This document shows positions 41,949-42,183 of a stretch of 64,000 nt of DNA, piece after piece. The notes below the pieces were generated by a model that did no database searches, was not told the DNA's origin, and worked only from the letters and a program-made list of their open reading frames with translations. The translations under genes and the position numbers were made by a program. Within the stretch, counting starts at the first letter, position 1, and each line of letters starts with the position of its first letter. Origin of the DNA: the human T2T-CHM13v2.0 reference genome, Homo sapiens; the NCBI GenBank assembly GCA_009914755.4, contig CP068257.2, positions 34,528,001 to 34,592,000 of the forward strand, read 5' to 3'.

Positions 41949-42183
41949 AGGCCTTGGCTTCAGCAATGTCATTCCCCCAGCAGACGGTGAGTGGGTGCCA
42001 GCCACAGTCAAGCACCCACTGTGCTCTTCCCCCAAGGCCTGGCCTGGGTTAGCTGGCTGTCCTGCCCCTCCCCTCCCCTCCCTTCCCCTCCTCTCCCCTC
42101 CCCTCCCGGGGGAGGGTGCTTGACTGTGGCCAGCGCCCATTCATCGTCTGTGGGGAGAATGACATTGCTGAAGCCAAGGCCTG
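41949..42183. repeat. Palindrome: ~69-bp inverted arms (~90% identity) around a 93-bp spacer containing a (CCCCT)n tract
   Basis: Left arm 41949-42017 aggccttggcttcagcaatgtcattcccccagcagacggtgagtgggtgccagccacagtcaagcaccc. The reverse complement of the right arm 42111-42183 is aggccttggcttcagcaatgtcattctccccacagacgatgaatgggcgctggccacagtcaagcaccc. Spacer includes cccctcccctcccctcccttcccctcctctcccctcccctccc at 42064-42107. The track's MGAGHSQAP../MGASHSQAP.. ORFs mirror each other. Confidence 0.85.

What the first reader, a model, noticed from the sequence alone, without database searches (positions are those of the whole stretch)
41949..42183. Near-perfect 69-bp palindrome flanking a (CCCCT)n tract, adjacent to the larger inverted repeat
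The left arm 41949-42017 and right arm 42111-42183 are about 90% identical reverse complements, with perfect identity for the inner 17 bp GCCACAGTCAAGCACCC. The 93-bp spacer contains cccctcccctcccctcccttcccctcctctcccctcccctccc, a polypurine/polypyrimidine mirror tract able to form H-DNA/triplex. The right arm runs directly into a reverse Alu that lacks its T-run, suggesting a rearrangement at the Alu 3' end. A palindrome plus a triplex-forming spacer is a classic fragile, recombinogenic configuration. Together with the 40.3-41.7 kb inverted repeat this makes a 2-kb cluster of secondary-structure-prone DNA in intron 2.
Basis: seen in the sequence. Interest (0 to 1): 0.5.

Follow-up and report, generated by a model that had tools for sequence, protein, structure and literature searches.

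The report
Intronic inverted duplication beside an Alu
A real 70-base inverted repeat sits in a long intron of the human DOP1B gene; it is most likely the neutral scar of a small DNA-copying error that overwrote the tail of a neighbouring Alu element, one of many thousands of such scars in primate genomes, and not a notably fragile site.

Summary
Arms 41948-42017 and 42114-42183 are 70 nt and 62/70 complementary. Gapped, they differ by 5 transitions and 2 one-base indels. They lie 96 nt apart, with blastn E about 1e-17 and no other copy in the 64-kb window. The spacer carries (CCCCT)8.6, a 43-nt pure pyrimidine run. The right arm abuts a complete reverse AluSx body that keeps only TTT of its tail.

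The locus is human chr21, the 34-kb DOP1B intron after the ATG exon, on the sense strand.

The arms are not Alu or MIR. They have no target-site duplication and match no Rfam family. They differ far less than expected if they were as old as the AluSx (P about 0.007), so the repeat formed after that Alu arrived.

Best explanation: a short-range template switch (four-point type 3-2-1-4), or a fold-back templated insertion at a break. Either would copy about 62-70 nt of upstream sequence in reverse complement over the Alu poly(dA:dT) tail. Both are common, described mutation classes.

The fragility reading is weak. A 96-nt spacer, 89% identity and short arms fall outside the cruciform criteria. 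The tract misses the strict triplex criterion and is better described as a minus-strand G-quadruplex motif.

No primate orthologues could be retrieved, so the origin is inferred. Interest is low.

The parts
41948..42017 (+). Left arm of the inverted repeat. It is the presumed source (template) copy and is unique sequence, 61% G+C.
   Evidence: It is flanked by undisrupted unique sequence and does not resemble Alu or MIR.
42018..42113 (+). 96-nt spacer (71% G+C). A possible 6-nt extension of the palindrome pairs TCCCCC 42028-42033 with GGGGGA 42108-42113 across a 10-nt indel. The match is weak.
42065..42107 (+). (CCCCT)8.6 microsatellite, a 43-nt pure pyrimidine run. The perfect mirror repeat is 15 nt with a 12-nt spacer, or 18-nt arms with a 3-nt spacer if one mismatch is allowed. 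The minus strand carries eight G3-4 runs, a G-quadruplex motif.
42114..42183 (+). Right arm of the inverted repeat, the presumed derived reverse-complement copy. It lies where the AluSx T-run and target-site duplication should be.
42184..42189 (.). GCTTTC, a 6-nt junction between the right arm and the Alu body. It is either a remnant of the T-run or filler.
   Evidence: read directly
42190..42472 (-). AluSx-like element. The body is complete and the A-tail is missing. It differs from the consensus by 18 non-CpG changes and 18 CpG transitions over 276 nt (13%).
42473..42776 (-). AluJo-like element with a T-rich tail at 42473-42500. Its right target-site duplication, TGCTTCTTTTTTTT, starts at 42777. 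The AluSx apparently inserted into this tail.
40331..41709 (.). Neighbouring, older non-Alu inverted repeat. The arms are 40331-40541 and 41497-41709 (about 211 nt, 83% identity). The 955-nt spacer contains AluS(+) at 40797-41078 and an impure (TG)n. This is context, not part of the same event.

Best explanation
The feature is a neutral mutational relic, a local inverted duplication made by a short-range template switch during replication. In the four-point model of Löytynoja and Goldman this is a '3-2-1-4' event.

Proposed sequence of events:
1. An AluJo had inserted, and later an AluSx inserted into its T-rich tail.
2. Synthesis of the plus strand stalled at or in the poly(dA:dT) tract that formed the AluSx tail.
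3. The nascent 3' end re-annealed about 100 nt upstream, on the inner end of what is now the left arm (AAGCACCC, 42010-42017).
4. It copied about 62-70 nt backwards to 41948.
5. It returned to the original template at the Alu body.

The net result is that the T-run and target-site duplication were replaced by the reverse complement of 41948-42017.

Since then the arms have drifted apart by 5 transitions, three of them at CpG sites, and 2 one-base indels. Scaled to the AluSx, this suggests an origin at about a quarter of the Alu's age, roughly 5-25 million years. That figure rests on an AluS age of about 35 My taken from general knowledge.

The element has no demonstrated function. In DOP1B pre-mRNA it would fold into a stem of about 70 bp.

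Shown here: the repeat, its uniqueness in the window, its position against a tail-less Alu, and its youth relative to that Alu.

Inferred: the mechanism, the direction (left arm as source, right arm as copy) and the microhomology.
For: - The repeat is reverse-complement, local and highly significant.
- The arms are not Alu or MIR, and there is no third copy in 64 kb.
- The right arm abuts an otherwise complete AluSx body that has lost its tail and its left target-site duplication. The Alu's right flank is the T-rich tail of an AluJo.
- Arm-to-arm divergence is significantly lower than expected for the age of the AluSx (P = 0.007 for non-CpG sites, 0.0004 for all sites; age ratio 0.23-0.28). 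The event therefore post-dates the Alu and plausibly removed its tail.
- The four-point model describes exactly this outcome. [quoted passage not shown]
- Template-switch sites in great apes are strongly enriched for T8, T10 and longer T-rich motifs, which are known sites of fork stalling (PMC7954356).
- 53,666 putative template-switch mutations were found in primate genic regions, and 31,007 of them made a new RNA stem (PMC10710096).
- A weak clue: the first 5 nt of the AluJo target-site duplication (TGCTT) occur at 42117-42121, at the inner junction of the right arm. About 0.016 such matches are expected per 10-nt window. This would give a pre-existing 8-nt microhomology, GGGTGCTT with AAGCACCC, for the first switch.
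Against: - No ancestral or outgroup sequence could be obtained, so the 'before' state is reconstructed, not observed.
- No clear microhomology exists at the outer (return) junction.
- A copied fragment of 62-70 nt with its template 96-166 nt away may be longer and more distant than typical short-range events. One detection method required the template to lie within 100 nt of the mutation cluster. I did not retrieve a fragment-length distribution.
- The tail loss and the duplication could be two separate events.
- Gene conversion between the arms would make the repeat look younger than it is.
- Dfam or RepeatMasker could not be run, so membership of a low-copy repeat family is not excluded.
Confidence: 0.55

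Rival explanations
1. A fold-back (snap-back) templated insertion during double-strand-break repair. A break occurred in or near the Alu poly-A/T tail. The resected 3' end folded back on upstream microhomology and was extended, for example by Pol theta. It was then joined to the Alu-side end. The product is the same as in the replicative model but the cellular context differs.
For: The anatomy is the same as for the best explanation. Templated inverted duplications generated by a foldback mechanism are documented at breaks (PMC11724301 abstract). Pol theta extends stem-loops primed by as few as two terminal base pairs (PMC11292364 abstract). [quoted passage not shown] The 6-nt GCTTTC at the outer junction could be filler.
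Against: Reported fold-back insertions are mostly very short, about 5-34 bp in yeast (PMC11724301). A tract of 62-70 nt is long for that class. Sequence alone cannot separate this from the replicative model.
Confidence: 0.25
2. A non-autonomous DNA transposon (MITE-like element) with 70-bp terminal inverted repeats, or two opposed copies of an uncharacterised interspersed repeat. The Alu would have landed or been truncated next to it.
For: The feature has terminal inverted repeats around a short non-coding core with no Pfam hit for the spanning ORFs. The arms begin with CAGG, loosely like the CAG-type termini of hAT elements as I recall them. A 3-nt GCT flanks both ends.
Against: There is no 8-bp (hAT), TA (Tc1/mariner) or TTAA (piggyBac) target-site duplication. 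The flanks are CCAGGGCT and GCTTTCGA. There is no other copy in the 64-kb window. A 23-mer shared by both arms gave no hit in the metagenome or GTDB contig collections, though those are almost uninformative for human repeats. The arms are younger than the AluSx, whereas from general knowledge human DNA transposons were extinct by about the AluS era. The right end lies exactly at a tail-less Alu, which a transposon insertion does not explain.
Confidence: 0.07
3. A selected functional RNA element. The stem of about 70 bp in DOP1B pre-mRNA would act as a young miRNA or endo-siRNA precursor, an ADAR editing substrate, or a splicing or circRNA modulator. The C-rich loop would act as a PCBP/hnRNP K binding site.
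For: The element lies on the sense strand of a transcribed intron. The RNA fold is very stable, -167 kcal/mol with z = -13. Introns are hotspots for miRNAs born from template switching (PMC10710096). Four of the eight ungapped arm differences are G-U wobbles in the sense transcript.
Against: There is no Rfam match; the best hits score 23 bits against a gathering threshold of 137. From general knowledge a 70-bp stem with a 96-nt loop is not a canonical pri-miRNA shape. The split of wobbles and mismatches is what neutral transitions give, and the two indels and the CA/AC pair break the helix. No expression, editing or conservation data were available.
Confidence: 0.05
4. An actively fragile non-B DNA site, a cruciform plus H-DNA, that drives recurrent rearrangement.
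For: The single-strand hairpin is stable. The pyrimidine run is 43 nt and the G4 motif is strong. There is one past rearrangement at the Alu tail and a second inverted repeat 240 nt away.
Against: The 96-nt spacer and 89% identity fall outside the cruciform criteria. The perfect mirror arms have a 12-nt spacer, outside the triplex criterion. Longer spacers and greater divergence sharply lower instability in yeast. The arms have persisted long enough to diverge. Several inverted Alu pairs in the same window have longer arms, and one has a much shorter spacer.
Confidence: 0.08

Closest known systems
Short-range template-switch mutations (four-point model, type 3-2-1-4 / 1-4-3-2; Löytynoja & Goldman 2017, PMC5453318; Walker et al. 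2021, PMC7954356; Mönttinen et al. 2023, PMC10710096)
   Same: A reverse-complement copy of nearby sequence is written in place of the original. This creates a new inverted repeat and RNA stem. The site is associated with a poly(dA:dT) tract and lies in the sense strand of an intron.
   Different: The copied fragment (62-70 nt) and its distance from the template (96-166 nt) may exceed those of typical reported events; I did not retrieve the size distribution. The ancestral state is not observed here, so membership is inferred.
Fold-back / snap-back templated inverted insertions at double-strand breaks (SD-MMEJ, Pol theta end joining; PMC11724301, PMC5728401, PMC11292364)
   Same: An inverted copy of adjacent sequence is inserted at a junction, possibly with short filler.
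   Different: Documented insertions are mostly about 5-34 bp. This one is about twice that length or more.
Closely spaced inverted Alu pairs and PATRR-type fragile palindromes
   Same: An inverted repeat that can form a hairpin in single-stranded DNA or RNA.
   Different: The arms are only 70 nt, against about 300 nt for Alu pairs and several hundred for PATRRs. They are GC-rich, not AT-rich, and 89% identical. The spacer is 96 nt, against about 20 nt or less for the unstable classes.
H-DNA and G-quadruplex motifs such as the c-MYC CT element (general knowledge) and non-B DB triplex and G4 classes (PMC3531222)
   Same: A pure pyrimidine/purine tract of C-rich pentamers. It has mirror symmetry and four or more G-runs on the complementary strand.
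   Different: The mirror symmetry is interrupted. Perfect arms of 15 nt are separated by 12 nt, so the tract fails the strict triplex flag. It lies in an intron, not a promoter, and the G-rich strand is the transcription template.

Membership tests
Template-switch inverted duplication (four-point model) | A fragment that is the reverse complement of sequence lying nearby (tens to about 100 nt away) | tested here: met
   70-nt arms, 89% complementary, 96 nt apart, E about 1e-17
Template-switch inverted duplication (four-point model) | The ancestral or outgroup sequence lacks the copy and carries different sequence at that place | not testable with these tools
   No primate orthologues could be reached. 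The only support is indirect: the Alu tail and target-site duplication are missing, and the arms are younger than the Alu.
Template-switch inverted duplication (four-point model) | Switch points in or near poly(dA:dT) (an enrichment, not an obligatory feature) | tested here: inconclusive
   The copy occupies the position of the AluSx T-run, and the AluJo T-rich tail is adjacent. The tract itself is gone, so this is inferred.
Template-switch inverted duplication (four-point model) | Microhomology at the switch points | tested here: inconclusive
   A possible 8-nt GGGTGCTT at the inner junction, if TGCTT is the left target-site duplication of the AluJo. No convincing microhomology at the outer junction.
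TIR DNA transposon / MITE | A target-site duplication of superfamily-specific length flanking the terminal repeats | tested here: not met
   The flanks are CCAGGGCT and GCTTTCGA. Only a 3-nt GCT is shared, with no TA, TTAA or 8-bp duplication.
TIR DNA transposon / MITE | Multiple dispersed copies in the genome | not testable with these tools
   No other copy in this 64-kb window. The human genome and Dfam are not available. The contig-collection scans were empty but uninformative.
Cruciform motif (non-B DB subset) / fragile palindrome | An inverted repeat with a spacer of 4 nt or less and near-perfect arms | tested here: not met
   The spacer is 96 nt and identity is 89%. The criteria come from PMC3531222.
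Triplex (H-DNA) motif (non-B DB subset) | A mirror repeat of 10 nt or more, over 90% pyrimidine on one strand, with a spacer under 8 nt | tested here: not met
   The tract is 100% pyrimidine and has a perfect 15-nt mirror repeat, but the spacer is 12 nt. The criterion is met only if one mismatch is allowed, giving 18-nt arms and a 3-nt spacer.
G-quadruplex motif (non-B DB) | Four or more G-runs of 3 nt or more, separated by 1-7 nt | tested here: met
   Eight G3-4 runs on the minus strand across 42065-42107; the first regex match spans 42085-42107
Known structured RNA / miRNA family (Rfam 15) | A score at or above the family's gathering threshold | tested here: not met
   No match at gathering thresholds. 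The best local hits are MIR1858 at 23 bits against a threshold of 137, which merely reflects a long hairpin.
Alu or MIR-derived inverted pair | Arms that align to a SINE consensus | tested here: not met

The most novel reading that the evidence does not exclude
The hairpin was created in one step by a template switch at an Alu tail, and it may since have been taken up as a hominoid-specific functional RNA in DOP1B pre-mRNA. It could be a young miRNA or endo-siRNA precursor, or a non-Alu ADAR1 substrate. The (CCCCU)n loop could recruit poly-C-binding proteins. Alternatively, the site may be a polymorphic structural-variant hotspot on chromosome 21.
Probability: 0.05. Interest if true: 0.4.

Novelty: new member of a known kind. 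Interest (0 to 1): 0.15.

Why it matters
It matters little on its own. If the outgroup comparison confirms the model, this would be a clean and unusually long (62-70 nt) example of a template-switch mutation started at an Alu poly(dA:dT) tail. The neighbouring Alu gives it an internal clock. It would also show how one event creates a 70-bp RNA stem in a host-gene intron, which is the raw material proposed for de novo miRNAs (PMC10710096). It does not open a new question. Showing that the 'fragile palindrome' reading fails the usual quantitative criteria is the main useful result.

Tried and rejected
1. Retrieving orthologues or other copies all failed:
   - An exact 23-mer shared by both arms gave 0 hits in metagenome contigs and in genome contigs.
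   - Exact-product look-ups of the two ORFs that span the palindrome found nothing on record.
   - A protein search with the 98-aa minus-strand ORF gave no hit at E <= 0.001.
   - Cross-species dating was therefore impossible. These collections are essentially prokaryotic or metagenomic, so the negatives say nothing about copy number in primates.
2. Rfam at gathering thresholds over the whole window, and at E <= 10 over 41700-42300, found only noise and Alu-related hits.
3. Pfam on the two spanning ORFs found nothing. They are chance ORFs. Their similar peptides simply mirror the palindrome.
4. Alu or MIR origin of the arms is rejected.
5. Extending the palindrome inwards gives only a 6-nt TCCCCC/GGGGGA match across a 10-nt gap. 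Standard gapped scoring does not support it.
6. I considered the (CCCCT)n tract as a degenerated A-tail of the AluSx, with the right arm inserted between body and tail. I ranked this low because the tentative AluJo target-site duplication copy (TGCTT) lies to the right of the tract. It is not excluded.
7. The left arm contains a donor-like ACG|GTGAGT, an ATG and an upstream GATAAAAA. I noted these as a possible cryptic first exon. No tool here can test that, and the strings are short enough to be chance.
8. The sigma-70 promoter and terminator scanner and the phage, plasmid and E. coli collections were not used, because they are irrelevant to a human intron.

Full report
**Where this is.** The window is human chromosome 21.
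- Its first ORF (727-1362) is the last exon of carbonyl reductase 3. It matches PDB 2hrb residues 132-274 with E = 1e-94.
- DOP1B (DOPEY2) follows on the plus strand. Dopey_N Pfam hits fall at about 55.2 and 63.6 kb.
- The splice sites are AAG|gtatgt at 19723/4 and ttgacag|GCT at 53939/40.
- The finding therefore lies 22 kb into a 34.2-kb DOP1B intron, on the sense strand. I did not test that.

**The observation.**
- The repeat finder reports arms 41948-42017 and 42114-42183, 70 nt, 89% complementary, 96 nt apart.
- My alignment gives 62/70 ungapped. Gapped, it gives five substitutions, all transitions, and two single-base indels.
- Perfect blocks are 27 nt (outer) and 17 nt (inner, GCCACAGTCAAGCACCC).
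- blastn of either arm against the whole window finds only itself and its partner (E = 1e-17 to 3e-18).
- As single-stranded DNA the region folds at -87.9 kcal/mol against -43.9 +/- 3.9 for shuffles (z = -11.3). As RNA it folds at -167 kcal/mol (z = -13.2).
- The spacer holds (CCCCT)8.6 at 42065-42107. This is a 43-nt uninterrupted pyrimidine run.
Otherwise the description is accurate.

**What the arms are not.**
- They do not align to Alu or MIR.
- No Rfam family reaches threshold. The best local hits are 23-bit matches to a plant long-hairpin miRNA model whose gathering score is 137.
- The two ORFs that span the palindrome have no Pfam domain, no homologue and no record in public assemblies.
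- There is no target-site duplication. The flanks are CCAGGGCT and GCTTTCGA, sharing only GCT. This argues against a TIR transposon, though I could not run Dfam or count copies in the human genome.

**The neighbourhood.**
- Six bases (GCTTTC) beyond the right arm begins a minus-strand Alu. It aligns best to AluSx over consensus positions 1-276, with 18 non-CpG changes and 18 CpG transitions. By eye it runs to within about 2 nt of the body's 3' end. Its A-tail, a T-run on the plus strand, is missing.
- Its head abuts the T-rich tail (42473-42500) of a second minus-strand Alu, best AluJo, at 42501-42776. That Alu's right flank, TGCTTCTTTTTTTT, looks like its target-site duplication.
- The simplest history is that the AluJo inserted first and the AluSx then inserted into its tail. 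In that case a T-rich duplication plus a T-run should lie to the left of the AluSx body. The right arm of the palindrome lies there instead.

**An internal clock.**
- The AluSx copy is 6.5% diverged from consensus at non-CpG sites and 13% overall.
- If the palindrome were as old as the Alu, its arms should differ at about 8.9 non-CpG positions, or 17.7 positions overall. They differ at 2 and 5 (Poisson P = 0.007 and 0.0004).
- Three of the five substitutions are CpG decays: GCG/GTG, and CCGG read as CCAG in one arm and CTGG in the other.
- The palindrome is therefore younger than the Alu it touches, at about a quarter of its age. Taking AluS at roughly 35 My (general knowledge), that is roughly 5-25 My with wide Poisson error.
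- This assumes no gene conversion between the arms.
It also identifies the right arm as the derived copy.

**Mechanism.**
- The structure is what the four-point template-switch model calls a 3-2-1-4 event. Replication leaves the template at point 1, copies a nearby fragment (2 to 3) in reverse complement, and returns at point 4. This type, with its mirror case, creates a new inverted repeat and made up 31% of high-confidence human-chimp events (PMC5453318).
- In great apes such events are strongly enriched next to T8, T10 and longer T-rich motifs, which stall forks (PMC7954356). That fits an Alu tail as the initiation site.
- 53,666 putative events were found in primate genic regions, and 31,007 of them created RNA stems (PMC10710096).
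- A weak extra clue: TGCTT, the first 5 nt of the AluJo target-site duplication, sits at 42117-42121 inside the inner end of the right arm. About 0.016 such matches are expected per 10-nt window. If that is the left duplication copy, the ancestral GGGTGCTT was already complementary to AAGCACCC at the left arm's inner end. That would give an 8-nt microhomology for the first switch.
- The outer junction shows no convincing microhomology.
- A fold-back templated insertion at a double-strand break gives the same product and cannot be separated from sequence alone. Reported cases are mostly 5-34 bp (PMC11724301), so I rank it second.

**Non-B DNA and fragility.**
- By non-B DB v2 criteria (PMC3531222) the feature is an 'inverted repeat' (spacer up to 100 nt) but not a 'cruciform' (spacer up to 4 nt).
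- The tract is a mirror repeat, with perfect 15-nt arms, but the 12-nt spacer misses the triplex flag (under 8 nt). It qualifies only if one mismatch is allowed (18-nt arms, 3-nt spacer).
- It clearly satisfies the G-quadruplex definition on the minus strand, with eight G-runs. Because DOP1B is on the plus strand, the G-rich strand is the transcription template and the pre-mRNA carries (CCCCU)n.
- In yeast, increasing the spacer of 320-bp Alu inverted repeats from 12 to 100 bp lowers recombination about 300-fold. Divergence lowers it exponentially. Even a single mismatch near the centre of symmetry significantly reduces it (PMC10164571).
- Here the arms are 70 nt and 89% identical, with a 96-nt spacer, and they have survived long enough to diverge.
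- Inverted Alu pairs in the same window have longer arms (61-275 nt). One pair has only a 12-nt gap between its matching arms, about 38 nt between the Alu bodies.
- The 'classic fragile configuration' reading is therefore not supported. Hairpin formation in single-stranded DNA or RNA remains plausible.

**Function.**
- None is shown.
- In the sense transcript four of the eight ungapped differences are G-U wobbles and four are mismatches. That is what neutral transitions and indels would give.
- A 70-bp stem with a 96-nt loop is not a canonical pri-miRNA. An ADAR substrate role is conceivable but untested.

**The 'cluster'.** The neighbouring inverted repeat is real: 40331-40541 against 41497-41709, 83% identity, with a 955-nt spacer holding an AluS and an impure (TG)n. 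It is older and its arms are separate from this one. About 4.3 million inverted duplicates are reported in the human genome (PMC5398296), so I cannot say that two within 2 kb is meaningful.

**Verdict.** This is an ordinary, probably neutral, primate-age inverted duplication of the template-switch kind, anchored at an Alu tail. It is a new member of a known kind and of low interest. The decisive test, which these tools cannot run, is the orthologous sequence in other primates, together with a Dfam and whole-genome copy count.

Noticed in passing
window 196-809: A head-to-head inverted Alu pair lies just upstream of the CBR3 last exon: 196-488 on the minus strand and 527-809 on the plus strand. 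Only about 38 nt separate the bodies. The repeat finder reports 151-nt arms, 79% complementary, with a 12-nt gap. Judged by spacer length this is a more 'at-risk' inverted repeat than the finding.
   Followed up: partly
window 40331-41709: An older non-Alu inverted repeat, arms 40331-40541 and 41497-41709, about 211 nt, 83% identity. An AluS(+) (40797-41078) and an impure (TG)n (about 41200-41340) have inserted or expanded in its 955-nt spacer. Its origin is unknown. A weak MIR-like match lies at 41700-41806.
   Followed up: partly
window 23811-24404 (minus strand): An intronless ORF matches human ribosomal protein uL3 (RPL3) residues 206-402 with E = 2e-104. It is a processed RPL3 pseudogene inside the DOP1B intron.
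   Followed up: yes
window 20650-21289: A second inverted Alu pair, 20650-20869 (minus) and 21005-21289 (plus), 135 nt apart, with 61-63-nt blocks at 89% complementarity.
   Followed up: partly
window 42032-42043 and 42174-42185: An exact 12-nt direct repeat, CCAAGGCCTGGC, occurs in the spacer and at the outer end of the right arm. Its 10-nt core is the reverse complement of the left arm's outer end (41948-41957) and contains the palindromic AGGCCT. It could mark a pre-existing short quasi-palindrome or a second switch point. This was not resolved.
   Followed up: no
window 41910-41995: The left arm and its upstream flank contain GATAAAAA, an ATG about 40 nt downstream of it, and ACG|GTGAGT, a consensus-like splice donor. 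In the right arm the donor has decayed to ATGAAT. This could be a cryptic first exon or chance. It was not tested.
   Followed up: no
window 2523-2670 and 22210-22326 (minus strand): Two Rfam Metazoa_SRP hits sit just above the gathering score (71.7 and 72.6 bits against 70). They are most likely Alu-related sequence derived from 7SL RNA, not SRP RNA genes.
   Followed up: no
window 42209-42268: A sub-threshold Rfam mir-3135 match (38.8 bits against a gathering score of 80) lies inside the AluSx next to the palindrome. This family evidently overlaps Alu sequence.
   Followed up: no
window 54524-54895 (minus strand); 1739-1790; 11000-12200: Three unrelated features. An ORF at 54524-54895 looks like an L1 ORF2 C-terminal fragment (by eye) and lies between DOP1B coding exons. 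A 52-nt pyrimidine run lies downstream of CBR3. A 74% G+C CpG island is presumed to be the DOP1B promoter.
   Followed up: no
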